Shown: positions 34,193 to 45,346 of the stretch, in pieces | Layout: each line of letters starts with the position of its first letter | Numbering within the stretch: position 1 is the first letter of the stretch | From: Thermoanaerobaculia bacterium | Lineage (GTDB): Bacteria > Acidobacteriota > Thermoanaerobaculia > Multivoradales > UBA5704 | Reading direction: 5' to 3' | Length of the DNA stretch: 64,000 bases | Assembly: GCA_049284515.1 (NCBI GenBank) | Contig: JBAPYB010000416.1 | Span: 3,582 to 67,581, forward strand | The notes under the pieces: model-generated | Seen by the model: the letters and a program-made list of their open reading frames with translations, nothing else | What the model was told of the DNA's origin: nothing | The model's database searches: none | Position numbers and translations under genes: made by a program

Positions 34193-34297
34193 AGCCTCTC
34201 ACCGCGGGCCCCTCCTGCGCCTATGCCCGTGCGACCCGCCGATGCGAGCCCACATCGTGACGCTGGACGCGGCACTTTAGCCGTTGGACCTGTAAAT

Positions 34298-34425
34298 CGC
34301 GCCGATGGACGTGTCCATCGAGCCAATGTGCGTGTCCATCGAGCCGAGGTGCGTGTCCATCGAGCCGAGGTGCGTGTCCATCACGGAAAAGTGCGTGTCC
34401 ATCGAGCCGATGTGTGCGTCCATCG
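34298..34425. repeat. 21-bp tandem repeat array A (about 6 units)
   Basis: The unit cgagccgaggtgcgtgtccat is repeated head to tail. It shares the gtgcgtg core with arrays B and C. Confidence 0.85.
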
Positions 34426-34546: not shown

Positions 34547-34840
34547 ATGAAGACTCTCACCTTCACCGAGGCAAGGAAGAACCTGAGTCACTGGCTGGCG
34601 GCCGCCGCCGGTGGCGATGACGTCGGCATCATCTTGGGAGCCAACGTCATCGCCCTCCGCAAGGTGGAAGTGGAATCTACGGACTTTGCACAGCGTGAAT
34701 ACGGCGCGACGCCAGAGCAGGTCGCCGCTTTGCAGGAGGCCGTGGACGACCGCTATCGCCGGCTCAGGCGCTCGGGGAAACTCAAGACGGTCCCGGTGGA
34801 CGAGCTGAGAGGGCTGCTTGAAGAAGCCTCTCTCCCTTGA
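34547..34840 (+). CDS. Phd/YefM-like antitoxin with no adjacent toxin
   Basis: 97 aa starting MKTLTFTEARKNLSHWL, a typical Phd/YefM N-terminus. Trimmed from ORF 34223..34840, whose N-terminus is a translation of array A. Confidence 0.6.
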   Translation: MKTLTFTEARKNLSHWLAAAAGGDDVGIILGANVIALRKVEVESTDFAQREYGATPEQVAALQEAVDDRYRRLRRSGKLKTVPVDELRGLLEEASLP

Positions 34841-35313: not shown

Positions 35314-35354
35314 CGCCGACCGCTCAACTCGTCTCGCCGAGCGCGCTACTCGCG

Positions 35355-35720
35355 ACAAAGTGCACTGTATTTCAGTCGTTGGACGTGCACGTCGGAATAA
35401 TGAGCACGCACTTTGTCTCGAGAAGCATGCTCCTCGTGACAAAGAGCACGCTTCTCGTGATGAAGAGCACGCTTCTCGTGACGAAGAGCATGCTCTTTTC
35501 AAAAAAGAGCGTGCTCCTCGGGACGAAGTGCGTGCTCCTCGGAGAAAAGAGTGTGCTCTTCGGACCGCAGAGCATGCTCCTTTCAAAAAAGAGCGTGCTC
35601 CGCGGGACAAAGAGCATGCTCCGCGGAGAAAAGAGCGTGCTCCGCGGACCGAAGAGCGTGCTCATTTCAAAAAAGTGCGTGCTCCTCGGAGAAAAGAGCA
35701 TGCTCTTCGTCACAAGGAGC
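35355..35720. repeat. 21-bp tandem repeat array B (about 15-17 units, core GAGCRYGCTC)
   Basis: Units such as gagcacgcttctcgtgacgaa and gagcatgctccgcggagaaaa are repeated head to tail. All six frames are open across the array. Confidence 0.9.
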
Positions 35721-35889
35721 GGTACTGTCCTAGTTTGATTTTCCCCCGGGAATTCGCCCCGTTTCCGCCCTGTTTGCGGTACCTTCCTCCGTAGGGGGAG
35801 GGGCCATCCTTCTCCCGCCCAAACCAGACGGCCCGGCGGTGTGCGCGAACACGTCCGCCGAGCCTGAGCCCAGCAGGAGGACTAACCCC

Positions 35890-36336
35890 ATGCCGGACCT
35901 AGCACGGAAGTCTATCGCGTCCAGTCCGCCCCCATCCCCACCGCCTGAAAAGGCCGTCTCTCCGCCCATCATCGACCCGGAGCACTTCGAGGACTTCATG
36001 GTGTTCCGCGAGACCTTCATGGTCTTCTTTCCGGACCGCAGGGCCAACGGCGAAATGAGGGGTTTCGCTCGTCTGCTTTTCGAGATGGTTATCGAGACGT
36101 GGGGCGGATGGCCGGATCACCCGGAGGGCATCTTTCCCGCCGAGCTGCGCGCTGCCGTGGCAGACATGCGGCACCTACAGGGCGCCATGTCGAATTGGTG
36201 CGGCCCGGCCTTCACGGCATCGGGCGAGTACGAAACCCGCCTTGCAGGAGTCGGCGCCAGCATCGCGCTCGCCGTGGGCGAGCTGGCAGACCGCTTGGAA
36301 GTGGAGCTGGACTCCTGGCAGGGCAAGCCGTCATGA
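35890..36336 (+). CDS. Hypothetical protein (transposon passenger)
   Basis: ORF 35839..36336 with probable start at MPDLARK. ATGA overlap with the next gene. Confidence 0.45.
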   Translation: MPDLARKSIASSPPPSPPPEKAVSPPIIDPEHFEDFMVFRETFMVFFPDRRANGEMRGFARLLFEMVIETWGGWPDHPEGIFPAELRAAVADMRHLQGAMSNWCGPAFTASGEYETRLAGVGASIALAVGELADRLEVELDSWQGKPS

Positions 36337-36725
36337 GTTGGAATCCCGCCGCCGACCGCAAGCGCCTTGCCCCCTTCGGGACCTACGATCCCGAGCGGTA
36401 CCGCGTCACCGTTCACGACACCTTCCAGCAATACAAGCTCCGCATGGCGGCGACTCAGATTCGGAGCGGCATGTCCGTGCCCGAGTTCCTACTCTTCGCG
36501 GCGGAGTACACCATTGCCCACCATCGCGAGCTGCGCCACTTCGCGGCAGTCTTCCGCAAGGGCGCCCGGGAGATCGCCGTAGCTGGCGCCAAGCCTGTGA
36601 ATCCCTCTCAGTACGTCTCCACCCCGGAATCGGAGCGGGAACGCAATCGCTACTCCGCCCTCTGTCACTTCTGCGCGTGGGCGGGAGAGAAGCTCATCCG
36701 CCGGGGAAAGGAGGAACAAGGGTGA
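36333..36725 (+). CDS. Hypothetical protein (transposon passenger)
   Basis: 130 aa starting at MSWNPAADRK. Coupled to its neighbours by ATGA upstream and GTGA downstream. Confidence 0.5.
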   Translation: MSWNPAADRKRLAPFGTYDPERYRVTVHDTFQQYKLRMAATQIRSGMSVPEFLLFAAEYTIAHHRELRHFAAVFRKGAREIAVAGAKPVNPSQYVSTPESERERNRYSALCHFCAWAGEKLIRRGKEEQG

Positions 36726-37165
36726 AGACGGCGAGCTTTACCGTGCATGCCGATGTCCGGCAGTCCGCGAGATGGAAGCAGGCGGCAGAGGGGGAAGGCT
36801 ATCCCTCAGTCGGCGGATGGCTCGCCGTGGCAGCGGACCGCCACCTGCAAGCCGTGGCACGTAGCGGACGGCCCGTCCCTCTGGCTTGGCGTCTGGGGAG
36901 CTTCAACGTCCGCCTGGAGGGCGGCGAGCTGGCGCGGGTCCGGGGCCACGTCTCGCCGCCGTTCGGTTCCTTCGCAGGGACGGATAAAGGCCCGGCAAGG
37001 TACGCCGGACGCGGGCGGCATCCGCTGGTGTTCCTGCCAGACTGCCGCATCATCGCCACCCTTCGCAGCTACCGCGAGTGCAAGACGTTGGCGGCAGAGA
37101 TCGCCCCCGCCCTGATTCGCGGCGAGCTTCCGGACCCTGCCGCCATCCTCAAGCATCACCTATAA
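36722..37165 (+). CDS. Hypothetical protein (transposon passenger)
   Basis: 147 aa from a GTG start (VKTASFTVHADV). Translationally coupled to the upstream gene. Confidence 0.5.
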   Translation: MKTASFTVHADVRQSARWKQAAEGEGYPSVGGWLAVAADRHLQAVARSGRPVPLAWRLGSFNVRLEGGELARVRGHVSPPFGSFAGTDKGPARYAGRGRHPLVFLPDCRIIATLRSYRECKTLAAEIAPALIRGELPDPAAILKHHL

Positions 37166-37217
37166 ACCACCACTGCGAGCCAGTCCTTCGGGGCTGGCTC
37201 GTGCTACTTTAGGAGCC

Positions 37218-37454
37218 ATGCCCATGCGCCCGAAACGTTCCGCCGATCCCGTCAAGGCTGCTCACCAGCTATACCTAGAGATCATCGGGGAAGCCCCCGT
37301 CCAGCCCATGCCGGAGAACACTCCGGCCGCCGTCGCCGTGCGCCGTGGCGCGGCTGAGGGGGGCCAGAAGCGAGCGGCCAAGCTCACCCCCGAGCGACGG
37401 CGAGAGATCGCCCAGAAGGCCGCCGCGAAGCGCTGGAAAAAGCCCTCCCCGTAG
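37218..37454 (+). CDS. Small basic protein, possible DNA-binding protein
   Basis: 78 aa. The C-terminus GGQKRAAKLTPERRREIAQKAAAKRWKK is a pattern common in phage and plasmid small proteins. Confidence 0.5.
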   Translation: MPMRPKRSADPVKAAHQLYLEIIGEAPVQPMPENTPAAVAVRRGAAEGGQKRAAKLTPERRREIAQKAAAKRWKKPSP

Positions 37455-37622
37455 TCCCCCGCCCCTGGTAGAATCCCCTCCGGCGTGGCTAGGTTTGGCC
37501 ACCGAACGCCGGTTCCCCACAGCCGGCCCGCCGCGCCTTTCTTCCCTTCTCCCTTCTGTGGGCGGCGCCTGTGGGGGTGCTTCATCGCCAAGTGGCCCGG
37601 AGATCCGGCAGCGATTCAGTGC

Positions 37623-38159
37623 ATGGTCAACATGCTCGCGGGTGAGTCTCCGCCTAGCATACGGGACGCCGCCGCCCGGTGTTGTCGTGGAATGTCCGGA
37701 GATCCGAAGAAGCATATTGAACGACTTCGCAGACGATACCGCACGCTTGCCAAGCGCGGTAAGCTTCCCCTGCCAGAAACTCCCGCCTCCCGCTTGCAAG
37801 CCAAGGTCGCCGAACTCAGGGCGATGTACGAACATACCGATGCCAGGATCGAGGTCGCCCGGCGGGATCTCGTTTTGGCTGAAGACGAAGCCAAAGCACT
37901 TGGGCTCGACATCGAAGGTCCAAAACTCCAGCCTGTTCTCGCGGCGCTAGATCTAACAAAGGACCGCCTGGAATCCCTCACTATTTACCCTACCGAGATC
38001 GCCTATTCGCATTACAGGAACCAAGGACTAACTGTAGATCAGGCAGAAGAGCGGCTCATTCAAGAAACCGCGAAACTACAGTTAGTGAAAGAGCAAATCG
38101 AAATCACTCGGAAGGTCCGCGACCTCCGGGCCATCGCAGGGATTCCCTACCACGAGTAG
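37623..38159 (+). CDS. Coiled-coil protein, hypothetical
   Basis: 178 aa from MVNMLAGE. The start is uncertain (the ORF opens at 37485). Confidence 0.45.
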   Translation: MVNMLAGESPPSIRDAAARCCRGMSGDPKKHIERLRRRYRTLAKRGKLPLPETPASRLQAKVAELRAMYEHTDARIEVARRDLVLAEDEAKALGLDIEGPKLQPVLAALDLTKDRLESLTIYPTEIAYSHYRNQGLTVDQAEERLIQETAKLQLVKEQIEITRKVRDLRAIAGIPYHE

Positions 38160-38173
38160 TTCTTCCCCAGGCG

Positions 38174-38263
38174 TGGGGAAAACTATCCAAGAGCCTGGGG
38201 AAAACCTGTCTTTGGCTGGGGAAAATTGCCTGCTAAGCTGGGGAAAAGTTGCATCTTTTCCCC
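38174..38263 (+). promoter_or_regulatory. Iteron-like array: 4 direct TGGGGAAAA repeats plus 1 inverted copy
   Basis: Direct copies lie at 38174, 38196, 38217 and 38239 (spacing 22/21/22 bp). The inverted copy ttttcccc lies at 38256-38263. Confidence 0.7.
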
Positions 38264-38558
38264 GCTAAAATCAATGTTTGCAACGGTTTGAGTCTTACGG
38301 TAGGGTGGGGGAGTTGAGGGCCGACGGATTCAGGCCGCCGACCCTCAAGAGAAACCAGACGTAGCGGTCCGGAGTTCTCCGCAAGGGCAGTATACCTCCG
38401 GACCGCCGCGCCTCGAAAGGAGGACGCGGTGATTTACCCCAACTGCAAGCGCTGGAAGCTCATGTGGTCCCACCTTCCCCGGAAGGCGTAGCTACGCCCC
38501 GAGCGGGCCGGGGAGGGACTAGCGCCGCATTTTTCTTGAACTTACTTCGTTCTACCTA

Positions 38559-38587
38559 TTGACTTTCCCGACAAGGGCAAGCATAAT
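38559..38587 (+). promoter_or_regulatory. Sigma-70-like promoter of the transposase, possibly giving a leaderless mRNA
   Basis: TTGACT (38559-38564), a 17-nt spacer, then CATAAT (38582-38587). The transposase ATG at 38595 is 7 nt downstream of the -10 element. Confidence 0.45.
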
Positions 38588-38594
38588 GACGATT

Positions 38595-39437
38595 ATGGCA
38601 AACGTACTCAGCACCGCGAAGCGCTCCCAGATCGTCGCCGCCCTAATCGAGGGGATGGGCGTGAGGGCAACTGCCCGGATGGTCGATGTCTCGAAGGACA
38701 CCGTCTCGAAGCTCTCGCTTGAACTCGGGGAAGCCTGCATCCGGTACATGGACGAAACGCTGGTCAACCTGCCCTGCAAGCGGCTTCAGGTGGATGAGAT
38801 CTGGGGCTTCTGCTACGCGAAGCAGAAGAACGTCCCGGCCGCAAAACAGGGCACCTTCGGCTATGGCGATCTCTGGGCGTTCACGGGCGTTTGCGCCGAT
38901 ACGAAGATCATCCCCACCTTCCTGGTAGGCTCGCGGGACGCGGGGAGCGCCACGGCCTTCATGCAGGATCTCGCGGGCCGGCTGACGAACCGGATTCAGC
39001 TCACCACGGACGGGCACAAGATGTACCTGTCCGCGGTGGAGGACGCTTTCGGCGGCGGCGTTGACTACGCGATGCTGGTGAAGGTCTACGGGGACATCCC
39101 GCAGGGTGAGCACCGCTACAGCCAGCCGGACTGCATCGGCGCCCAGAAGCACGCCGTCTCGGGTTGCCCCGATGCCAAGCACGTGAGCACGAGTTTTATT
39201 GAAAGGCACAACCTGACCCTGAGGATGGGCATGAGACGCTATACCAGACTCACGAACGCCCATTCCAAGAAGCTCAGGAACCACACCGCCGCCCTGGGGC
39301 TGTTCCTCTGCTTCTACAACTTCTGCAAGATTCACACGACCTTGCGCGTCACGCCCTGCATGGCGGCCGGCGTTACGTCCCGCGTGTGGGAAATCGCGGA
39401 CCTAGTCAAGCTCCTGGACCGGCCGGCCGCGGCCTAA
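38595..39437 (+). CDS. IS1-family DDE transposase (single-ORF type)
   Basis: N-terminal HTH is RSQIVAALIEGMGVRATARMVDVSKDTV. Also present: QVDEIWGFCYAKQKN, LTTDGHKMY, and ERHNLTLRMGMRRYTRLTNAHSKKLRNH...YNFCKIHTTLRVTPCMAAG. Confidence 0.8.
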   Translation: MANVLSTAKRSQIVAALIEGMGVRATARMVDVSKDTVSKLSLELGEACIRYMDETLVNLPCKRLQVDEIWGFCYAKQKNVPAAKQGTFGYGDLWAFTGVCADTKIIPTFLVGSRDAGSATAFMQDLAGRLTNRIQLTTDGHKMYLSAVEDAFGGGVDYAMLVKVYGDIPQGEHRYSQPDCIGAQKHAVSGCPDAKHVSTSFIERHNLTLRMGMRRYTRLTNAHSKKLRNHTAALGLFLCFYNFCKIHTTLRVTPCMAAGVTSRVWEIADLVKLLDRPAAA

Positions 39438-39588
39438 CCAAGCCCAGCCGCGGCACGGTCTCAGGGGGTTGCCTTCAGGCCAGAACGGAGTATACATACA
39501 ATCAAACCGGAGTCCGGTCCCGTGCTACAATCCCCCTTACCCCCCGAGCGCAGTGCTCAGGGGTGTCTCCTTATGGGCGGAGGAAGCC

Positions 39589-39930
39589 ATGCTAAACTTA
39601 GAACTCGATGCTATCCTGTTCGAGAGAACGCCCGGGTGCTGGGTGGGGCAGTGCCTCCAATACGATATCGGGGCACAGGCAGAGTCGCTGCCGGATCTCG
39701 CCTACCAGCTCGGACGCGCCATAGCCGGCTACGCGGTTATCTGTGAAGAGACCGGGGTAGAGCCGTTCACAGCTCTGGGGTCCGCCCCCAGGGAGTACTG
39801 GGATCTCTGGCGCCGGGCGACACTCACCGTAGTATCACAACAAGAGCCGCGATTCCGGCTACCTAAGGCCGTGTCCGTGCCCGAAACACGCATGAAGGTG
39901 GCAGAGAGCGAGAAGAAGAAGGCGGCTTGA
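39589..39930 (+). CDS. Hypothetical protein, possibly HicB-like antitoxin fold
   Basis: 113 aa from MLNLELDAILFERTPGCWVGQC. The stop lies next to the start of the following ORF. Confidence 0.4.
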   Translation: MLNLELDAILFERTPGCWVGQCLQYDIGAQAESLPDLAYQLGRAIAGYAVICEETGVEPFTALGSAPREYWDLWRRATLTVVSQQEPRFRLPKAVSVPETRMKVAESEKKKAA

Positions 39931-39931
39931 G

Positions 39932-40210
39932 ATGACCTATCCTATGGCGCCGGCCTTGACTCTCCGGCAGTTCATAGACAAGACAGTCCCGCACGGAGTC
40001 GTTGAACGTTCCGTACCTGGGGGTATGGTCGGACCGCGAGGGGATATGAAGATTAGCTATCTCGAAATCGCCCGCCCCGGCGCGATTCGCGTGACTGAGC
40101 CTCTTCCAGAGAATGAGGAATCTCTGCTCGCCTGGGACACAGTAAGGCGTCTTTGCCGCCAGCTAGAGATTCAGCCCCGCGACTTGGACATCGGCCTTCC
40201 ACTCGATTGA
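39932..40210 (+). CDS. Hypothetical protein
   Basis: 92-aa ORF immediately after the previous gene (TGAGATG junction). Confidence 0.4.
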   Translation: MTYPMAPALTLRQFIDKTVPHGVVERSVPGGMVGPRGDMKISYLEIARPGAIRVTEPLPENEESLLAWDTVRRLCRQLEIQPRDLDIGLPLD

Positions 40211-40274
40211 GCCCCGACCCACATCCCCCGGGGCGGCCCCTACCGCCGCCCCGGATTCAAACTAGGACAGTACC

Positions 40275-40575
40275 CAAGGAGCATGCTCTTCGTCACGAAA
40301 AGCGTGCTCTTCATCACGAGAAGCGTGCTCTTTATCGCGAGGAGCATGCTCTTTATTGCGAGTAGCGTGCTCTTTGTCACGATGAGCATGCTCATCATCA
40401 CGAGAAGAGTGCTCATCATCACGAGAAGCGTGCTCATCGTCGCGAGGAGAGCTCTCCTCAAAACGACGAGCGTGCCTCTTGTTCGAAACAGCGCGCTCCT
40501 CGAGACGATGGGAGGGCTCCACGAGGCGTGGAGCGGGCGTACCGAGCCGAGAGGCACGCTCATCGAAGGAAACCT
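40275..40575. repeat. 21-bp tandem repeat array C (about 13-14 units), inverted relative to most of array B
   Basis: Example units are gagcatgctcttcgtcacgaa and aagcgtgctcttcatcacgag. The reverse complement of ~35420-35482 matches 40279-40341 with a few mismatches. Confidence 0.9.
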
Positions 40576-40779: not shown

Positions 40780-41829
40780 GTGAAGCCTTTCTTTCGTAGC
40801 TCCCTCCGCGTCCTCGCCGTCACTGTCGTGACTCTCGCCGGCCTCCTGGGGCTGACCGCAGCCGCGATCACCCAGCCGACGTTCAGCATCACACGGCGGC
40901 CGGACGGCCCTCGCGCCGATCCTGAGCGTCTGCGGCGGCACGTGGAGCTGCTCACCCGGGAGGTATGGCCGCGGGACAGCGACCATCCGGAGAACCTCGA
41001 CCGTGCAGCGGTCTATCTGCGAGATCAATTTGCGGCCAGTCGCGTGCGGGTGACAACACCGGACTTCCATGTCCACGGCCGGACCTATCGCAACGTCGTC
41101 GCGTCCTTCGGCCCGGAGGCGGGGCCGATTCTGATCGTCGGCGCCCACTACGACTCTTTCGGCGGCTTCGGTGCCAACCCGGGAGCGGACGACAACGCCA
41201 GCGGCACGGCCGGCCTCCTCGAGCTGGCTCGTCTTCTGGCCGGTCACCGCCTGGAGCAGCGGGTGGATCTCGTGGCATTCGCCAACGAGGAGCCGCCATA
41301 CTTCGGCTCGGCCCAGATGGGAAGCGCCGTTCACGCTCGGTCGCTGGCGGGGCGGGAGGTCCGGGGAATGATCTGCCTGGAGATGATCGGCTACTTCACG
41401 CCACGCCAGCCCTCACCGAACTGGTTATTCCGGTTCCTCTACCCGAACCGGGGCGACTTCATCGCCGTCGCCGGCCGCTGGGCCGACCGCGAGCTCACCC
41501 GCCAAGTCAAACGCGCCATGCGCGGCGGCAGCGACCTCCCTGTCGTGAGCTTCACCGCTCCCCGGTCCGCAGGTCTGGACGGCTCCGACCAGATCAACTA
41601 TTGGGACCGCGGCATTCCTGCCGTGATGGTGACCGATACCGCCGACATCCGGAATCCTCACTATCACAGCCCTTTGGACACGGCGGAGACGCTGGACTAC
41701 CCCCGGATGGCTCGGGTGGTGGATGGCGTGACGAACGCGGTGCTGGCGATTTGTGGAAAGACCGCTCAGCATGCTGCCAGCATGCTACACTCTGAACATG
41801 GCGAATCTCCAGGTCAAGAACCTTCCTGA
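40780..41829 (+). CDS. M28-family aminopeptidase
   Basis: Signal/TM segment at the N-terminus. Contains GAHYDSFGG...GADDNASGTAGLLELARLL and NEEPPYFGS, which are M28 zinc-ligand contexts. Confidence 0.85.
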   Translation: MKPFFRSSLRVLAVTVVTLAGLLGLTAAAITQPTFSITRRPDGPRADPERLRRHVELLTREVWPRDSDHPENLDRAAVYLRDQFAASRVRVTTPDFHVHGRTYRNVVASFGPEAGPILIVGAHYDSFGGFGANPGADDNASGTAGLLELARLLAGHRLEQRVDLVAFANEEPPYFGSAQMGSAVHARSLAGREVRGMICLEMIGYFTPRQPSPNWLFRFLYPNRGDFIAVAGRWADRELTRQVKRAMRGGSDLPVVSFTAPRSAGLDGSDQINYWDRGIPAVMVTDTADIRNPHYHSPLDTAETLDYPRMARVVDGVTNAVLAICGKTAQHAASMLHSEHGESPGQEPS

Positions 41830-42031
41830 GCCCCTTCATACGCGCCTTCGGCGCTATGCGCGGCGGCATCACCGGACGCTCAGCGACGTTGCGCTAGCCG
41901 CTCTTGAGAGAGAGATGAACCGCTGCGAATGGTATGAGCGCTTGGCCCGGCGCCCGCCTACCGACCTCGGGGTCTCGGCGGCCTCGCTGCTTGAGGAAGA
42001 GCGGGGGCAGCGGCAGCGAGATCTCGATTGA
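41798..42031 (+). CDS. VapB/FitA-like antitoxin
   Basis: 77 aa starting MANLQVKNLPEPLHTRLRRYARRHHRTLSD, a typical FitA/VapB N-terminus. 4-nt overlap with the PIN gene. Confidence 0.7.
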   Translation: MANLQVKNLPEPLHTRLRRYARRHHRTLSDVALAALEREMNRCEWYERLARRPPTDLGVSAASLLEEERGQRQRDLD

Positions 42032-42429
42032 GCCGTTTTGTCATCGATGCCTCTGCGGCCGTGGAGTACCTTCTCCGCACTCCTCTCGGCCTCAGGCTCC
42101 AAGACCTCGTCGACGGCTCCTTCTTGATGGCGCCCGCTCTCTTGGATGTTGAAGTGCTCTCCGTATTGAGGCGTGCCGTTCTACACAGAGGACTCTCGGA
42201 AGCCAGGGCGGGATTGGCTCTCGAAGATCTCAGCGAATGGCCCATGGACCGTATACCGCACACAACCCTCATTAAAGAAGCCTGGCGGCATCGGCACAAC
42301 GTCAGTGCCTACGATGCATTCTATGTCGCCGTGGCCCGCCTCTACGAAGCGCCTCTCCTCACTACGGACGGTCCTCTTTCCCGCGCACCAGACCTCGGTA
42401 TCGACATACGCAATCTACGGATGGAGTAA
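42028..42429 (+). CDS. vapC: PIN-domain toxin VapC
   Basis: 133 aa. Has the FVIDASAAVEYLL N-terminus and AYDAFYVAVA...LLTTD motifs. Confidence 0.85.
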   Translation: MSRFVIDASAAVEYLLRTPLGLRLQDLVDGSFLMAPALLDVEVLSVLRRAVLHRGLSEARAGLALEDLSEWPMDRIPHTTLIKEAWRHRHNVSAYDAFYVAVARLYEAPLLTTDGPLSRAPDLGIDIRNLRME

Positions 42430-42607: not shown

Positions 42608-45346
42608 ATGGAAATAGGCGACCATCACCTTTTGCTGACTTTCCCTGAAGGGTGGTCGGCTGAGCAGAAGGGCGATTTTTTTGAGAGATTTGTCTCAGAG
42701 ATACTCAAGCCGATGCGATATTCGGTTGTCCAGCGCCTCAGGGTAACGGGAATGGAAATCGATCTTCTCGCAAGGAATGAGGATCAACCTACTACGATCT
42801 TGATAGAATGCAAGGCTCATAGAGATCCCATTTCCGCGGAAGTTATCTCCAAGCTCTTGGGAAATGTTACGCTCAGAAGGGCAGACAGCGGCTGGCTCTT
42901 TACTGCTAGCGACCTGACGAAGGATGCGAGAGGTCAGTGGGAGGAGATCCAAGCTGATCCTGAGCTGCGACGAAGGTTCACGTGGTTCTCACCACATCGG
43001 ACGCTTGATGTCTTAATTAGCCAGAAATCTGTTGTCGACCCACGAGATTTTGAGAGCGCGCTAAATGGCCGCGTAGTCGGCGATTGGACCCTAATCCTCT
43101 CCCCATCTGGCAAATCATGGCTTGCACAAATTGTGGAAGATGGACTTCCGGCTAGATTCAGTGTTTTTGATGCCAGCTCGGGTTTTCCGCTTTCAGCTAA
43201 AGCAGCCCAGGAAGTGGCTAATTCGTCGGCACGCTTTAGCTCCCTAAGCTTTCTCGACGTGGGGGCCGATGACCCTAAACGATACGCGACGCTACCGCCT
43301 CGTGCACCTGTCGCAAGAGTCATCTCTGGGGATGCTTGGGATGATCTACGGCCTTCACGACCACAAGACTTTGTGGGCCGCGACGATCTTATAGGCGATA
43401 TTTTCACATTCTTTGACGAAGTGCGTCAGAGCCGAACCTCGACTCGGATTTTTGCAGTGCAAGGCCCAAGCGGTTGGGGTAAGAGTTCTTTGCTTTTGAA
43501 ACTTGGCGATGTAGCACGGAAAAAGTCTAGATCATATTCACTGACAGCTATAGATACGCGATCAGCCACCAACTCAGCCTTCGTGAGTGAGGCTGTTAGT
43601 ATCGCTTTTGAAGAAGCGCGAGGGAAGGAACTACTGCCTGGAGCTACTAAACTTGAGGTTAACAGTCTTCGCGACCCACTCGATTCAAGTGGATTAGTGG
43701 CCGCGCTCAAAGTTCTCGCCGCTAATCGGACATGCATCGTTTTGGTATTTGACCAATTTGAGGAGCTTTTCGCAAAAGAAGAACTCTTCGAGACGTTTAA
43801 TGCTGTCCGAGATTTAAGCTTTGATATTGACGCGCGACAGGTTCCTATGATTTTGGGCTTCGCTTGGAAGACAGACGTATCGCTGCCACAACAACATCCC
43901 GCTTATCACTTGTGGCATCAGCTCACCGATAGAAGAAGGACCTTCAAGATTAGGGAATTCGGAAAGGGTGATGTAGGAAGATTGATAACCAAAGCTGAAA
44001 GGGCCTCAGGCAAGACGCTTAGCCGCGCCCTAAGGGCTCGCCTAATGGAACAATGCCAGGGATTGCCATGGCTATTGAAGAAACTTTTGGTACATGTCTT
44101 CCATCGAGTATCAGAGGTGCAATCGCAGTACGCACTACTGGAGAGAGAACTGGACGTAGAACTTCTCTTCAAGGAGGATCTGTCAGTGCTCAAGGAAGAG
44201 CAGATCAGATGTCTGAAGTTCGTCGCCAACCGCGCCCCAGTTCCGGTTGCAGAGGTGGAGGAAAACTTTTCGAGAGATACCACAAACCTCTTGATTAACG
44301 ACCATCTGCTTGTACGGAGCGGAATGAACTATGTTGTATATTGGGATATTTTCCGTGATTATTTGGTGGATGAAAAAGTGCCACAAATTCCGTGGGCAAA
44401 GACCTTTCAGCGCGATCCTCAAATGGCTGTAAGGGCCCTCCAAAAGCTGGCCGAGATCGGACCTTCGGCGTCATCTGCTTTGGCCGTTGCCCTTGGTCTC
44501 CGAGAGAAGCCGATTTTCAATATCGTAGGAGACCTTCTTGCATTACAGTTAATAGAACCCGATTCAGATGGGCTTTACACTCCAGCTTCTCATTTGCCTG
44601 ACCTTAGACCCGTAACAATCGCCCGCCACGTGCAAGGGCAACTTTCAAGGCATGTTGTGACGCGCGAATTGTTCTCAAGATGGGAGAGAGGACGGTTAAT
44701 CGATAGTCAGACATGGTATTCGTTCTTCAAAGATGCCCAGCCTCGGACTTCCACATTTTCGCAAAACACCGTTCATCAATATGCAAGCAACTTCCGCAGA
44801 TGGTTGTTGTTCGCCGGGCTTCTCGAACAGGATAGCCGTTGGCTAAGTCGACCTATGGGAAGTGGCTCACTAATGGGGAGTTTGGCTTCACAGAAAACGG
44901 CAGCAGGAGTCTTCTTGGGAACTGCTTCTCCTCCCTCTCTTGAGAGATTATTCATAGTTCTGAAGGAAAGCCGTGGAGTACTTGGAAGATCAGAGATTGC
45001 ACGGCAAGGGCTTCGAAATACTGCAACGGATGCTCTCGCCCTGGGGCTGGTATCAAATAGTCGCGATGGCCTGGTGCGGCTAATAGAGGAGGACTTATCC
45101 GTTGGTGAGTTGACAGCTAGAGCCAAGAGTGCGGTGCTTCGGCAACCGGCGATTCAGGCGGCTGCGCGAGCGAAGAATAGTGACCCTGCCGGCCAGGACA
45201 CGACCGCCATTGGGAGAGAGGTCGAAGAAGAGATGGGAGCGAGTTGGAAACCAAGTTCAGCAAAGCGCTATGGCAGTGGCCTACTGAGATATCTTGCTTG
45301 GGCATCGGCATCGGTTTCGCGCAAGGACGACGGGATGGTTGGCTAG
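42608..45346 (+). CDS. Mrr-like restriction endonuclease domain fused to a STAND-like P-loop NTPase
   Basis: 912 aa in low-GC DNA (sample line 43% G+C). N-terminus is FERFVSEIL...GMEIDLLA...ILIECKAH (D...ExK). Walker A is VQGPSGWGKSSLLLK and Walker B is IVLVFDQFEELF. The C-terminus is long and helical or wHTH-like. Confidence 0.7.
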   Translation: MEIGDHHLLLTFPEGWSAEQKGDFFERFVSEILKPMRYSVVQRLRVTGMEIDLLARNEDQPTTILIECKAHRDPISAEVISKLLGNVTLRRADSGWLFTASDLTKDARGQWEEIQADPELRRRFTWFSPHRTLDVLISQKSVVDPRDFESALNGRVVGDWTLILSPSGKSWLAQIVEDGLPARFSVFDASSGFPLSAKAAQEVANSSARFSSLSFLDVGADDPKRYATLPPRAPVARVISGDAWDDLRPSRPQDFVGRDDLIGDIFTFFDEVRQSRTSTRIFAVQGPSGWGKSSLLLKLGDVARKKSRSYSLTAIDTRSATNSAFVSEAVSIAFEEARGKELLPGATKLEVNSLRDPLDSSGLVAALKVLAANRTCIVLVFDQFEELFAKEELFETFNAVRDLSFDIDARQVPMILGFAWKTDVSLPQQHPAYHLWHQLTDRRRTFKIREFGKGDVGRLITKAERASGKTLSRALRARLMEQCQGLPWLLKKLLVHVFHRVSEVQSQYALLERELDVELLFKEDLSVLKEEQIRCLKFVANRAPVPVAEVEENFSRDTTNLLINDHLLVRSGMNYVVYWDIFRDYLVDEKVPQIPWAKTFQRDPQMAVRALQKLAEIGPSASSALAVALGLREKPIFNIVGDLLALQLIEPDSDGLYTPASHLPDLRPVTIARHVQGQLSRHVVTRELFSRWERGRLIDSQTWYSFFKDAQPRTSTFSQNTVHQYASNFRRWLLFAGLLEQDSRWLSRPMGSGSLMGSLASQKTAAGVFLGTASPPSLERLFIVLKESRGVLGRSEIARQGLRNTATDALALGLVSNSRDGLVRLIEEDLSVGELTARAKSAVLRQPAIQAAARAKNSDPAGQDTTAIGREVEEEMGASWKPSSAKRYGSGLLRYLAWASASVSRKDDGMVG

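What the first reader, a model, noticed from the sequence alone, without database searches (positions are those of the whole stretch)
35721..40274. Complete IS1-family transposon with seven non-transposase ORFs, perfect TIRs and an 8-bp target duplication
GGTACTGTCCTAGTTTGA (35721-35738) is exactly reverse-complemented at 40257-40274. CAAGGAGC directly flanks both ends (35713-35720 and 40275-40282). The ends fit the GGnnnTG terminus and the 8-9-bp duplication that I recall as typical of IS1-family elements, and the only transposase inside (38595-39437) is IS1-like.
At 4,554 bp the element is far larger than a plain IS1 (~0.8-1.2 kb). It carries three translationally coupled ORFs (35890-37165), a small basic protein, a coiled-coil protein, an iteron-like site, a ~240-bp structured non-coding stretch and a two-gene pair (39589-40210). 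The intact TIRs and TSD imply recent transposition. The passenger set looks plasmid- or phage-like, so the element may carry a replication or maintenance module or an anti-defence cargo.
Basis: partly seen in the sequence, partly recalled or inferred. Interest (0 to 1): 0.68.

Follow-up and report, generated by a model that had tools for sequence, protein, structure and literature searches.

The report
IS1-family cargo transposon targeting repeat arrays
This is a complete 4.55-kb jumping gene of the IS1 family that carries seven extra genes. It belongs to a lineage in Acidobacteriota, for which I found no description, whose members usually land inside 21-bp tandem repeat arrays that differ in sequence from genome to genome.

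Summary
Perfect 18-bp inverted repeats (35721-35738 / 40257-40274) and an 8-bp duplication (CAAGGAGC) bound a 4,554-bp element in a Thermoanaerobaculia MAG.

Comparative data confirm these as the real ends. I delimited 37 related elements, 36 in other public genomes and metagenomes. They share GGTA[CG]TG termini and mostly 8-bp duplications, and run 2.2-6.4 kb. None is a bare ~1-kb IS. ~90-bp MITEs and a 660-bp cassette use the same ends.

The transposase has the IS1 D/D/E motifs but scores below the curated IS1 model cut-offs. It has no InsA zinc finger and no frameshift.

Four "passengers" are not free cargo. O4, a small basic protein, is in 35/36 elements tested. O3 is in about 25, and O1 is common. 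A variable slot between O4 and the transposase holds Fic, ImmA/IrrE, STAND and ATPase genes in relatives. In the window it holds an int-alpA-like RNA motif, O5 and a conserved 20-codon ORF. O7, which has a HicB-like N-domain, and O8 lie after the transposase. Nothing indicates replication.

Unexpectedly, 21/37 elements lie inside 21-bp-period arrays and 3 more lie within 35 bp of one. Array insertion tracks with full-length O3. The mechanism is unknown.

The parts
35340..35720 (.). Left half of the host 21-bp tandem array (unit about GAGCATGCTCTTCGTCACAAG, with dyad core GAGCA|TGCTC). This is the insertion target.
   Evidence: (family D1)
35713..35720 (.). Left copy of the 8-bp target-site duplication CAAGGAGC.
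35721..35738 (+). Left terminal inverted repeat GGTACTGTCCTAGTTTGA (GGnnnTG-type terminus). A GGGGAAAA box lies directly inside it, on the minus strand, at 35739-35746.
35739..35889 (+). Conserved left leader upstream of O1. It has two hairpin-forming segments and a GGAGG Shine-Dalgarno sequence. It is conserved across 13 elements even where O1 differs.
35890..36336 (+). O1, 148 aa, acidic, with a Pro-rich N-terminus. Function unknown. Diverged homologues lead many elements. An 89%-identical copy heads a tRNA-adjacent integrase and small-terminase island (L001).
36333..36725 (+). O2, 130 aa, basic. Its start overlaps the O1 stop (ATGA). Optional: found in 4 of 36 elements. Function unknown.
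36722..37165 (+). O3, 147 aa, basic. Its start overlaps the O2 stop (GTGA). The model shows an N-terminal extended segment followed by two helices, a ribbon-helix-helix-like topology, then a beta-rich domain with no fold match. Full-length O3 tracks with insertion into arrays.
37218..37454 (+). O4, 78 aa, pI 11.0. It carries the C-terminal motif GGxKRAAKLTPERRREIAxKAAxxRW. Some homologues are labelled 'histone H1' by NCBI. Present in 35 of 36 elements tested, and lies beside the left TIR in the smallest ones.
37482..37552 (+). int-alpA-like RNA motif (Rfam RF02996). Full-length match at 30.7 bits, below the gathering score of 35.8. The homologous sites in L083 and L076 score above it. A U-rich tract follows the motif.
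37623..38159 (+). O5, 178 aa. Unique to this element (singleton cluster). It occupies the variable cargo slot. Function unknown.
38175..38263 (.). Four direct GGGGAAAA boxes spaced 22, 21 and 22 bp, plus one inverted copy. A candidate operator cluster. All six copies in the 64-kb window lie inside the element.
   Evidence: (D5)
38317..38588 (+). Pre-transposase region, about 70% conserved in L009 and L019. It contains a hairpin at about 38317-38344 with compensatory changes, a Shine-Dalgarno sequence plus a 20-codon ORF at 38429-38491 (VIYPNCKRWKLMWSHLPRKA), a terminator-like hairpin with T-run at 38503-38537, and a promoter-like TTGACT-17-CATAAT at 38559-38587.
38595..39437 (+). DDE transposase, 280 aa, with an N-terminal HTH. 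D67 (DEIW), D139 (TTDG) and E203 (IERHN) are invariant in 34 family members and align with D44, D101 and E126 of E. coli IS1 InsB.
39589..39930 (+). O7, 113 aa. The N-terminal domain has a HicB-antitoxin-like fold. A rare family of 12 clusters. Also found after the transposase in L137, and alone in a 660-bp TIR-bounded cassette (L139/L140).
39932..40210 (+). O8, 92 aa. Pairs with O7 (1-bp gap). Also follows O7 in L137 (51% identity). No family or structure match.
40257..40274 (-). Right terminal inverted repeat. The last 32 bp (40243-40274) match the right end of L002, where the transposase ORF runs into the TIR.
40275..40282 (.). Right copy of the 8-bp target-site duplication CAAGGAGC.
40283..40520 (.). 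Right half of the host 21-bp tandem array.

Best explanation
**What it is.** The element is an intact unit transposon, a "transporter IS", built on a distant IS1-family DDE transposase.

**Shown**
- It has perfect 18-bp TIRs with a GGTACTG terminus.
- It has an 8-bp TSD.
- Its transposase carries the IS1-type D, D, E motifs.
- It has many relatives with the same ends and layout.
- MITEs and a one-gene cassette use the same ends.

**Inferred**
- The transposase binds the TIRs, excises or copies the whole 4,554-bp segment, and inserts it with 8-bp staggered cuts.
- A TTGACT-17-CATAAT promoter ends 7 bp before the ATG, so the transposase mRNA is probably leaderless. A terminator-like hairpin just upstream would shield it from read-through.

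**Lineage layout**
- Left TIR, then a conserved leader, then O1 (with or without O2), O3 and O4.
- Then a variable cargo slot.
- Then the transposase, which in most relatives ends in the right TIR.
- O4 is a small basic protein that partners the transposase in 35 of 36 elements tested. It is probably a DNA-binding accessory or regulatory factor (inferred).
- In the window the variable slot holds an int-alpA-like RNA motif, O5, a cluster of GGGGAAAA boxes and a conserved 20-codon ORF.
- A second cargo site between the transposase and the right TIR holds O7 (HicB-like N-domain) and O8.

**Target choice**
- Shown: the lineage inserts preferentially into pre-existing 21-bp-period tandem arrays. 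Each unit has a short dyad core. The unit sequence differs from array to array.
- Inferred: the element recognises array architecture, or a protein bound to it, rather than sequence. Full-length O3 is the best candidate determinant.
For: **Ends and TSD**
-.

**Relatives**
- 56 genome loci encode relatives of the transposase.
- 35 elements in the genome loci and the window were delimited at both ends. L137 and a second element in L004 bring the total to 37.
- Sizes run 2.2-6.4 kb. 29 of the 35 have an exact 8-bp TSD.

**Closest copy**
- L002/L003 has the identical 18-bp TIRs around a 4,208-bp element with TSD CCCGAGTG.
- It shares the left end, O4 (92% nt) and the transposase (90% nt) with the window element.

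**Non-autonomous derivatives**
- ~90-bp and ~190-bp MITEs carry the same TIR.
- A 660-bp cassette carries only O7.

**Transposase**
- NCBIfam IS1 model E = 5.6e-13, Pfam DDE_Tnp_IS1 E = 4e-4.
- Named "IS1 family transposase" by NCBI and JGI.
- BLASTP to InsB over IERHNLxLR, E = 5e-6.
- D67, D139 and E203 are invariant in 34 members and align with the InsB motifs.
- The E. coli IS1A ends are GGTGATG / GGTAATG.

**Conserved accessory genes**
-.

**Variable-slot content in relatives**
-.

**Array targeting**
- 20 of 36 elements lie inside a 21-bp-type array and 3 more lie within 5-35 bp of one. Such arrays make up only 2.1% of the reconstructed empty loci. Binomial P = 1.5e-24.
- In 18 of 20 cases the 21-bp register is restored by removing the element plus exactly 8 bp.
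- Two different elements sit in one array in L004.
- Array units have more dyad symmetry than shuffled units: 5.3 versus 3.6 +/- 0.2 bp, with 0 of 500 shuffles reaching the observed value.

**O3 association**
- 23 of 25 O3-bearing elements are in or near arrays, against 0 of 11 O3-less elements. Fisher P = 1.3e-7.
Against: - Transposase scores are below the curated cut-offs: 49.3 versus 100 bits (NCBIfam) and 21.1 versus 24.1 bits (Pfam). There is no InsA-type zinc finger and no frameshift, and D2-E spacing is 64 aa against 25 in InsB. Family placement is therefore distant.
- No second copy of this exact element was recovered, so activity is inferred only from intact ends.
- Array preference is not absolute. 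L088, L074/L109, L076, L130, L097 and L120 lie in ordinary DNA.
- The O3-array association is confounded by phylogeny. 7 of the 11 O3-less elements are from other phyla.
- An O3 relative also sits in an integrase-driven island that integrates next to tRNA genes. That argues against a role purely in transposon targeting.
- The O3 model has no fold match, so DNA binding is not demonstrated.
- No cargo protein has an assigned function.
Confidence: 0.85

Rival explanations
1. The array association comes from selection, not targeting. Insertion is near-random, but only copies landing in neutral, non-coding repeat arrays ("safe havens") survive.
For: - The arrays are intergenic and presumably tolerant of insertion.
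- Some members do sit in ordinary DNA.
Against: - Arrays are at most 2.1% of the local sequence, much less than the intergenic DNA overall. Yet they hold 20 of 36 elements.
- O3-less relatives from the same bacterial class (L010, L027, L029, L035) and the MITEs persist outside arrays. Survival outside arrays is therefore possible.
- One array carries two different elements 281 bp apart.
Confidence: 0.15
2. The element is an integrated plasmid-like or phage-like replicon, or a satellite, that happens to carry an IS1-type transposase. The GGGGAAAA boxes would be iterons of an origin, and O1-O5 a replication or maintenance module.
For: - Phased repeats 21-22 bp apart.
- O1 and an O3 relative occur in a tRNA-adjacent island with an integrase and two small-terminase genes.
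- An int-alpA-like RNA motif is present. Its Rfam name refers to integrase and alpA genes.
Against: - No Rep, primase, helicase, partition or structural gene was found. None of the seven non-transposase ORFs hits Pfam, NCBIfam or PADLOC below E = 0.09. PHROGs gives one short hit for O4.
- The GGGGAAAA cluster is absent from nearly all relatives. L009 has a similar GAGGGAAAA-containing repeat at the same position.
- The unit bounded by TIR and TSD, and the MITE and cassette derivatives, show that mobility is by transposition.
Confidence: 0.04
3. The variable cargo, including O5, O7-O8 and the micro-ORF, is a toxin-antitoxin, defence or counter-defence payload, and that payload is why the transposon persists. 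On this view the element is chiefly a vehicle for conflict genes.
For: - The O7 N-domain resembles HicB antitoxins: 3k6q_A probability 0.99, 6g26 probability 0.94. A weak profile hit to TTHA1756 has E = 0.74.
- O7 is mobilised alone by a TIR cassette inside phage-like DNA.
- Relatives carry Fic, Xre+M78 (ImmA/IrrE), nSTAND1, AAA_21/AAA_15, SDH-protease and P63C genes in the slot.
- The window element lies near a FitA/PIN pair and an Mrr-STAND gene.
Against: - No PADLOC hit for any window ORF.
- Foldseek E-values for O7 are weak (0.05-0.2) and cover only 52-69 residues.
- O7 lacks the DNA-binding C-domain of HicB, and O8 shows no HicA signature.
- This view does not conflict with the main explanation. 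It concerns only what the cargo does.
Confidence: 0.3
4. The 18-bp repeats are coincidental, and the real IS is just the transposase gene with nearby ends.
For: Plain IS1 elements are 0.8-1.2 kb.
Against: - Chance expectation for the repeat pair is 0.01.
- Identical or near-identical TIRs bound 2.2-6.4-kb elements in 36 other delimited elements, with 8-bp TSDs.
- No short version was found among 56 genome loci.
Confidence: 0.01

Closest known systems
IS1 of Escherichia coli (IS1A, NC_000913 19796-20563) and the IS1 family
   Same: - DDE transposase with DE[IM]W, TDG and IERHNLxLR motifs.
- Termini GGTnnTG.
- 8-bp target duplication. From my own knowledge IS1 gives 8-9 bp.
- HTH N-terminal to the catalytic domain.
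   Different: - IS1A is 768 bp and has no cargo.
- Its transposase InsAB' is made by a -1 frameshift between insA (zinc finger plus HTH) and insB (my own knowledge).
- Here a single 280-aa ORF has no zinc finger, D-D spacing is 72 aa and D-E spacing 64 aa (57 and 25 in InsB).
- Scores fall below the curated IS1 model cut-offs.
- A separate small basic protein gene (O4) accompanies the transposase throughout the lineage.
Transporter IS (tIS): IS derivatives carrying passenger genes. The concept is described in PMC9330008. From memory, ISfinder lists IS1-family and IS1595-family members of up to about 4.6 kb.
   Same: One transposase, IS-type TIRs and a TSD, with non-transposition genes inside the ends.
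   Different: - Here part of the "cargo" (O4, O3, O1) is conserved across the lineage.
- There is a defined variable slot.
- I could not check ISfinder for named relatives.
REP/BIME-targeting insertion sequences (ISPpu9, ISPpu10, ISPa11, ISPsy8, ISRm19/22; Tobes and Pareja 2006, PMC1525189) and IS1397
   Same: They insert preferentially into short, palindrome-containing extragenic repeats, which act as transposition hot spots.
   Different: - From my own knowledge, REPs are one conserved sequence family per genome, recognised sequence-specifically, and those IS belong mostly to the IS110 and IS3 families.
- Here each targeted array has a different unit sequence, even within one MAG (L005 versus L006; the two arrays in the window).
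- The shared feature is a 21-bp head-to-tail period with a dyad core.
- The transposase is IS1-type.
MITEs and mobile insertion cassettes (MICs)
   Same: ~90-bp and ~190-bp TIR pairs, and a 660-bp TIR-bounded cassette carrying only an O7 homologue, use this family's ends.
   Different: These are derivatives found in other loci. The window element is autonomous.
Tn7-type transposons with dedicated target-selector proteins (TnsD, TnsE, TniQ). Comparison from my own knowledge.
   Same: If O3 directs insertion into arrays, the logic would be the same: an accessory protein chooses the target for the transposase.
   Different: No homology. There is no TnsB/C-type machinery. The role of O3 is untested.
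HicB antitoxins (PDB 3k6q, 6g26) and TTHA1756 (2yzt)
   Same: The O7 N-terminal domain superposes on the HicB N-domain (rmsd 1.9 A over 52 residues).
   Different: O7 has no RHH or HTH DNA-binding C-domain. There is no recognisable HicA partner. O7 also occurs alone.

Membership tests
IS1 family (broad sense) | DDE transposase with IS1-type catalytic motifs in the same order as InsB. | tested here: met
   D67 (DEIW), D139 (TTDG) and E203 (IERHNLTLR) are invariant in 34 family members and align with InsB D44, D101 and E126. BLASTP to InsB gives E = 5e-6.
IS1 family (broad sense) | Score at or above the curated cut-off of the IS1 transposase models (NCBIfam NF033558, Pfam PF03400). | tested here: inconclusive
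   NF033558 gives 49.3 bits against a cut-off of 100 (E = 5.6e-13). PF03400 gives 21.1 bits against 24.1. IS1 is the best-scoring transposase family in both libraries. NCBI and JGI label the protein "IS1 family transposase".
IS1 family (broad sense) | Terminal inverted repeats beginning GGnnnTG. | tested here: met
   GGTACTG here and GGTA[CG]TG across the lineage. IS1A has GGTGATG / GGTAATG.
IS1 family (broad sense) | Target duplication of 8-9 bp. | tested here: met
   8 bp here. 29 of the 35 elements delimited in the genome loci and the window have an exact 8-bp TSD, as do L137 and the second L004 element.
Classical IS1 group (IS1A-like) | An insA gene (zinc finger plus HTH) and an insB' gene joined by a programmed -1 frameshift, in an element of about 0.77 kb. 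| tested here: not met
   A single uninterrupted 280-aa ORF. There are no paired CxxC motifs in the N-terminus. The element is 4,554 bp.
IS1 family (broad sense) | Transposase falls inside the IS1 clade in a phylogeny with IS1595 and other DDE families, or gives an ISfinder BLAST hit. | not testable with these tools
Transporter IS (tIS) / unit transposon | One transposase, IS-type TIRs and a TSD, with additional genes inside the ends that move with the element. | tested here: met
   The co-linear relative L002 has the same ends.
int-alpA RNA (Rfam RF02996) | Covariance-model score at or above the gathering score of 35.8 bits. | tested here: inconclusive
   Window 37482-37552 scores 30.7 bits as a full-length match (E = 0.0016 for 4.8 kb). 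Homologous sites score 41.3 bits in L083 and 36.8 in L076, both above the gathering score. L009, L019 and L020 score 30.7-32.1. Only 6 of 64 sources searched have the motif.
HicAB toxin-antitoxin | HicB with an N-terminal partial RNase-H-like fold and a DNA-binding C-domain, paired with a HicA (dsRBD-like) toxin. | tested here: not met
   Only the N-domain fold is similar. There is no Pfam HicB or HicA hit for O7 or O8. O8 has no structure match by sequence. O7 occurs without O8 in L139.
REP/BIME elements (as the target) | One conserved palindromic sequence family dispersed in many copies per genome, often in alternating orientation. | tested here: not met
   The targeted arrays are head-to-tail 21-bp repeats whose unit differs between arrays, including within one MAG and within the window.
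Plasmid or phage replicon with iterons | A replication initiator gene next to its iterons. | tested here: not met
   No Rep-like hit in Pfam, NCBIfam or PHROGs. The GGGGAAAA boxes lie between O5 and a micro-ORF.

The most novel reading that the evidence does not exclude
This lineage of IS1-type transposons chooses its targets by DNA architecture rather than sequence. It would recognise head-to-tail arrays with a 21-bp period, which is two helical turns, built from dyad-containing units of any sequence. Recognition would work through an element-encoded accessory protein. Full-length O3, with a ribbon-helix-helix-like N-terminus and a domain without a known fold, is the leading candidate, possibly acting with the H1-like O4. 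The arrays themselves would then be a previously unrecognised class of genomic landing pads in Acidobacteriota. Co-resident elements in one array could swap cargo there.
Probability: 0.3. Interest if true: 0.8.

Novelty: new variant of a known kind. Interest (0 to 1): 0.62.

Why it matters
**The element itself.** On its own the window element is an ordinary type of object: an IS-derived transposon with cargo.

**Three things the family analysis adds**
1. In this IS1-type lineage the transposase travels with a small H1-like basic protein in 35 of 36 elements tested, and usually also with a two- to three-gene operon. That blurs the line between an IS and a transposon, and suggests accessory factors for a family thought to need only InsA and InsAB'.
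2. The lineage has a defined variable slot that collects Fic, ImmA/IrrE, STAND, ATPase and HicB-like genes. The elements are therefore vehicles for conflict genes in a poorly studied phylum.
3. There is a strong and statistically robust preference for 21-bp tandem arrays of unrelated sequence.
   - If this is active targeting, it would be a case of periodicity- or shape-guided target selection.
   - It would also give the first handle on what these widespread arrays are.
   - It is directly testable with an array-bearing target plasmid.

Tried and rejected
1. **Nucleic-acid-guided targeting.** I compared each element's interior with its own target array and with other elements' arrays. The longest shared word averaged 9.35 nt for self and 9.97 nt for non-self. 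There is no sign of a guide.
2. **Consensus in the 8-bp TSD, or a fixed insertion phase relative to the dyad core.** Neither was found.
3. **O3 function by homology.**
   - The PDB profile search gave nothing (best E = 2.1).
   - Foldseek against the PDB gave nothing (best E = 0.29, TM < 0.2).
   - None of the listed homologues has a Pfam domain.
4. **O5 and O8.** No hit in Pfam, NCBIfam, PHROGs, PADLOC or PDB sequence searches.
5. **The about 300-nt non-coding stretch as one structured RNA.** The fold is no better than shuffles (z = -1.19). No Rfam hit reached the gathering score anywhere in the window. A custom covariance model of the int-alpA-like motif found only its six training sequences among 64 sources. 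The motif is therefore not a core feature of the family.
6. **Empty site and other copies.**
   - The downstream M28 peptidase is on record only on a 1.5-kb contig.
   - Look-ups of the other copies in the same MAG failed.
   - No empty site and no sister copy from this genome was obtained.
7. **Literature.**
   - No held paper mentions ISMhu11.
   - None describes IS insertion into 21-bp arrays in Acidobacteria.
   - The FEMS insertion-sequence review I tried by DOI and by PMC id is not held.
8. **Viral contigs.**
   - The O3 search found one locus (L144). It is a decayed element fragment with O1, O3 and a 41-aa transposase remnant.
   - The O7 search found nothing.
I redid it with homologues returned by the database.

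Full report
**Observation**

- GGTACTGTCCTAGTTTGA at 35721-35738 is perfectly reverse-complemented at 40257-40274 (pair I22). These are the only matches in the window even with three mismatches allowed. Chance expectation is 0.01.
- CAAGGAGC flanks both ends.
- The insertion lies inside a 21-bp tandem array (TRF: 35424-35721 and 40280-40446). The duplication could therefore have been an accident of the repeat. It is not. Removing the element plus exactly 8 bp restores the 21-bp register across the junction (identity 0.76 at 8 bp, at most 0.44 at any other offset).

**Source and genes**

- Exact-sequence look-up places the window in a Thermoanaerobaculia (Acidobacteriota) MAG, on a 73.6-kb contig (proteins MFY9824256-62).
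- All eight genes are on the + strand:
  - O1, 35890-36336
  - O2, 36333-36725
  - O3, 36722-37165
  - O4, 37218-37454
  - O5, 37623-38159
  - transposase, 38595-39437
  - O7, 39589-39930
  - O8, 39932-40210
- O1/O2 and O2/O3 overlap by ATGA and GTGA.
- Only the transposase matches known families, and IS1 is the best match in both libraries. NCBIfam NF033558 gives E = 5.6e-13 but 49 bits against a cut-off of 100. Pfam DDE_Tnp_IS1 gives 21.1 bits against 24.1. There are also HTH hits at residues 17-51.

**Are the ends real? Comparative evidence**

- *Closest copy.* Two metagenomic contigs (L002/L003) carry a 90%-identical transposase.
  - The identical 18-bp TIRs bound a 4,208-bp element with TSD CCCGAGTG.
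  - That element shares the left 210 bp, O4 (92% nt), the transposase (90% nt) and the last 32 bp with the window element.
  - There the transposase ORF runs into the right TIR. In the window about 0.8 kb carrying O7-O8 lies between them.
- *Wider family.* A scan of one genome per species found 56 loci with transposase relatives.
  - I delimited 35 elements at both ends, counting the window. Adding L137 and a second element in L004 gives 37.
  - Sizes are 2.2-6.4 kb, and none is a bare IS of about 1 kb.
  - Termini are GGTA[CG]TG. 29 of the 35 have an exact 8-bp TSD.
- *Derivatives.* A metagenome scan for the exact TIR found further copies, plus ~90-bp and ~190-bp MITEs with the same ends. A 660-bp TIR-bounded cassette carries only an O7 homologue (L139/L140).

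**Family placement**

- In an alignment of 34 family transposases, D67 (DEIW), D139 (TTDG) and E203 (IERHNLTLR) are invariant. They align with D44, D101 and E126 of E. coli IS1 InsB.
- BLASTP to InsB gives E = 5e-6 over the E-motif region.
- The IS1A ends are GGTGATG and GGTAATG.
- So the motifs, the termini and the 8-bp duplication fit IS1.
- The classical IS1 features are absent. There is no InsA zinc finger, no frameshift, and the size is not about 0.77 kb.
- The D2-E spacing is 64 aa against 25 in InsB, and the curated model cut-offs are not reached.
- I therefore file the element as a distant, single-ORF member of the IS1 family in the broad sense, and not as IS1-like in the narrow sense.
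- ISfinder could not be consulted.

**Anatomy of the lineage**

- *Layout.* tblastn and iterative searches give this order:
  - left TIR
  - a conserved leader of about 170 bp with hairpins
  - O1, which is diverse
  - O2, which is optional (4 of 36)
  - O3, full-length in about 25
  - O4, in 35 of 36
  - a variable slot of 1-2.5 kb
  - the transposase
  - the right TIR
- *O4.* It is a 78-aa protein with pI 11.0. It has 298 homologues, and NCBI labels some of them "histone H1". In the smallest elements it lies directly beside the left TIR. Its C-terminal motif also forms the N-terminus of P63C-domain proteins found in the slot of L015.
- *O3.* It has 245 homologues, all hypothetical. The AlphaFold model (pLDDT 83.5) has an N-terminal extended segment, then helices at residues 12-24 and 30-47, then a beta-rich domain. 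That N-terminal topology resembles a ribbon-helix-helix. No fold match was found.
- *O1.* O1 (89% aa) and an O3 relative also head a 7.1-kb island flanked by 25-bp direct repeats next to tRNA genes. That island carries two small-terminase genes and an integrase (L001). This module is therefore shared with a different kind of mobile element.
- *Variable slot in relatives:*
  - Xre-HTH plus M78 (ImmA/IrrE) with a partner, in 6 elements
  - an nSTAND1 NTPase
  - an AAA_21/AAA_15 ATPase with a partner
  - P63C proteins
  - an SDH (ClpP-like) protease
  - a trypsin-like protease
  - a RovC-like regulator
  - a nested 482-aa ORF that looks like a DDE transposase of another IS family (my reading of its sequence, not scanned)
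  - Fic with a partner

**What the window element carries**

- *After O4.* An int-alpA-like RNA motif lies at 37482-37552.
  - It scores 30.7 bits against a gathering score of 35.8, and the match is full-length.
  - The homologous sites in L083 (41.3) and L076 (36.8) pass the gathering score.
  - Only 6 of 64 sources searched have the motif.
- *O5.* It is unique to this element and has no match.
- *GGGGAAAA boxes.* Four direct copies and one inverted copy lie at 38175-38263. A sixth abuts the left TIR. These are all six copies in the 64-kb window.
- *Pre-transposase region, 38317-38588.* It is about 70% conserved in L009 and L019 and contains:
  - a hairpin with compensatory substitutions
  - a Shine-Dalgarno sequence and a 20-codon ORF at 38429-38491, with frame, stop and mostly synonymous changes conserved in all three elements (and my reading of it)
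  - a terminator-like hairpin with a T-run
  - a TTGACT-17-CATAAT promoter ending 7 bp before the transposase ATG, which suggests a leaderless mRNA
  - Folded as a whole, the stretch is not unusually stable (z = -1.19).
- *O7.* The family has only 12 clusters. The model (pLDDT 86) matches the N-domain of HicB antitoxins (3k6q_A, probability 0.99, rmsd 1.9 A over 52 residues; 6g26, probability 0.94). There is no DNA-binding C-domain.
- *O8.* No match.
- *O7-O8 in L137.* The pair also lies after the transposase in L137, whose transposase is only about 38% identical to other family members. The module has therefore moved between divergent family members or is old.
- *Replication and defence.* No replication function is detectable, and there is no PADLOC hit.

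**Unexpected result: target choice**

- *Extent.* In reconstructed empty sites, 19 of 35 elements lie inside a tandem array with a period of 21 bp or a multiple (42, 84). L137 makes 20 of 36, and the second L004 element makes 21 of 37. Three more lie 5-35 bp from an array.
- *Background.* Such arrays make up 2.1% of these loci, and most of that is the targeted arrays themselves. The binomial P is 1.5e-24.
- *Pre-existing arrays.* In 18 of 20 cases the register is restored by removing the element plus exactly 8 bp. The arrays therefore pre-date the insertions.
- *No shared sequence.* Unit sequences are unrelated between arrays. This holds within one MAG (L005 versus L006) and within the window (34296-34425 versus the target).
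- *Shared form.* The units share a dyad core. The best stem averages 5.3 bp against 3.6 +/- 0.2 bp in shuffled units, and 0 of 500 shuffles reached the observed value.
- *What is not there.* There is no TSD consensus, no fixed phase relative to the dyad, and no complementarity between an element and its own target.
- *Link to O3.* Array insertion tracks with full-length O3. 23 of 25 O3-bearing elements are in or near arrays, against 0 of 11 without it (Fisher P = 1.3e-7). Four of the O3-less elements are from Thermoanaerobaculia.
- *Caveats.*
  - The association is confounded by phylogeny.
  - Exceptions exist (L088, L074/L109 and others).
  - An O3 relative also occurs in an integrase island.
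- *Reading.* A 21-bp period equals two helical turns, so any bend or bound protein in a unit is repeated in phase. I regard recognition of array architecture, or of a protein bound to it, as the most likely basis. O3 is a candidate determinant at roughly 25-30%. Survival bias in "safe havens" is the main rival at about 15%.

**Comparison with known systems**

- The element works like a transporter IS or unit transposon (concept in PMC9330008) of the IS1 family.
- The nearest precedent for its target behaviour is the REP-targeting IS (PMC1525189). Those recognise one conserved sequence family. From my own knowledge they belong to other IS families.
- I found no paper describing IS insertion into sequence-diverse 21-bp arrays, or these arrays themselves. 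The library is incomplete and ISfinder was not available.

**Verdict**

- The finding is real, and its core interpretation is right.
- The element itself is a new member of a known kind.
- At the lineage level, the obligatory accessory genes, the variable slot and the array preference make it a new variant worth experimental follow-up.

Noticed in passing
window 34296-34425, and 35340-35720 + 40283-40520. Also the arrays in L002-L057 and L137.: Intergenic 21-bp-period tandem arrays of 6-30 copies. The unit differs from array to array, and each unit contains a short dyad core. What they are is unknown. They resemble neither REP/BIME nor CRISPR.
   Followed up: partly
window 37482-37552 (+): A full-length but sub-threshold match to the Rfam int-alpA RNA motif, directly after O4. 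The homologous sites in L083 and L076 pass the gathering score. It overlaps the 5' end of the long (224-aa) reading of O5, which supports the 178-aa gene call.
   Followed up: partly
window 38429-38491 (+): A 20-codon ORF (VIYPNCKRWKLMWSHLPRKA) with a GGAGG Shine-Dalgarno sequence 5 nt upstream. Frame and stop are conserved in L009 and L019, with mostly synonymous changes. A terminator-like hairpin follows it. It could be a leader peptide or a small toxin-like peptide.
   Followed up: partly
window 35739-35746 (-) and 38175-38263: All six GGGGAAAA octamers in the 64-kb window lie inside the element. One abuts the inner edge of the left TIR, and five form a phased cluster. The box resembles the unit of the array targeted by L002 (GGGGAAAAGGCTTTCCC).
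   Followed up: partly
L001 9785-16925: A 7.1-kb island flanked by identical 25-bp direct repeats, next to tRNA-Pro/Arg/Arg. It carries O1 (89% aa), an O3 relative, two Terminase_4 genes and a tyrosine integrase. It looks like a phage satellite and shares the transposon's left module.
   Followed up: partly
L139 5656-6315, L140 1433-2092: A 660-bp cassette bounded by family TIRs (GGTAGTGTCTCAGTTTGA). It carries only an O7 homologue and no transposase. It is inserted in phage-like DNA beside a 2,297-aa protein gene and an HNH gene.
   Followed up: partly
L060-L134 (for example L060 10126-10215): ~90-bp and ~190-bp MITEs with the exact 18-bp TIR, abundant in metagenome contigs of 56-62% G+C (the Ga0326727/28 series). 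None lies in a 21-bp array.
   Followed up: partly
L004 4340-8514 and 8796-13338: Two different family elements (TSDs CTCGGTGG and CAAGCGTG) sit 281 bp apart in one array. This gives a plausible setting for cargo exchange between elements.
   Followed up: yes
window 42608-45346 (+), in a low-GC patch (47-52% G+C against about 66%): A 912-aa protein with Mrr_cat nuclease and nSTAND1 NTPase domains, which looks like an antiviral STAND (Avs-like) defence gene. It is probably horizontally acquired.
   Followed up: no
window 41753-42429 and 34550-34840: A FitA-like RHH plus PIN toxin-antitoxin pair lies just downstream of the M28 peptidase gene. A sequence that by eye looks like a Phd/YefM antitoxin (MKTLTFTEARKNL...) lies downstream of the first 21-bp array. 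It had no Pfam hit when scanned as part of the 205-aa ORF.
   Followed up: no
window 35739-35889, and the aligned left ends of 12 relatives: The leader upstream of O1 is conserved even where O1 is not. It contains a CCTCC...GGGGGAGG hairpin with covarying positions and an invariant ACGGCCCGG...CCGCCGG inverted repeat. It may serve as a regulatory RNA or as a subterminal transposase-binding region.
   Followed up: no
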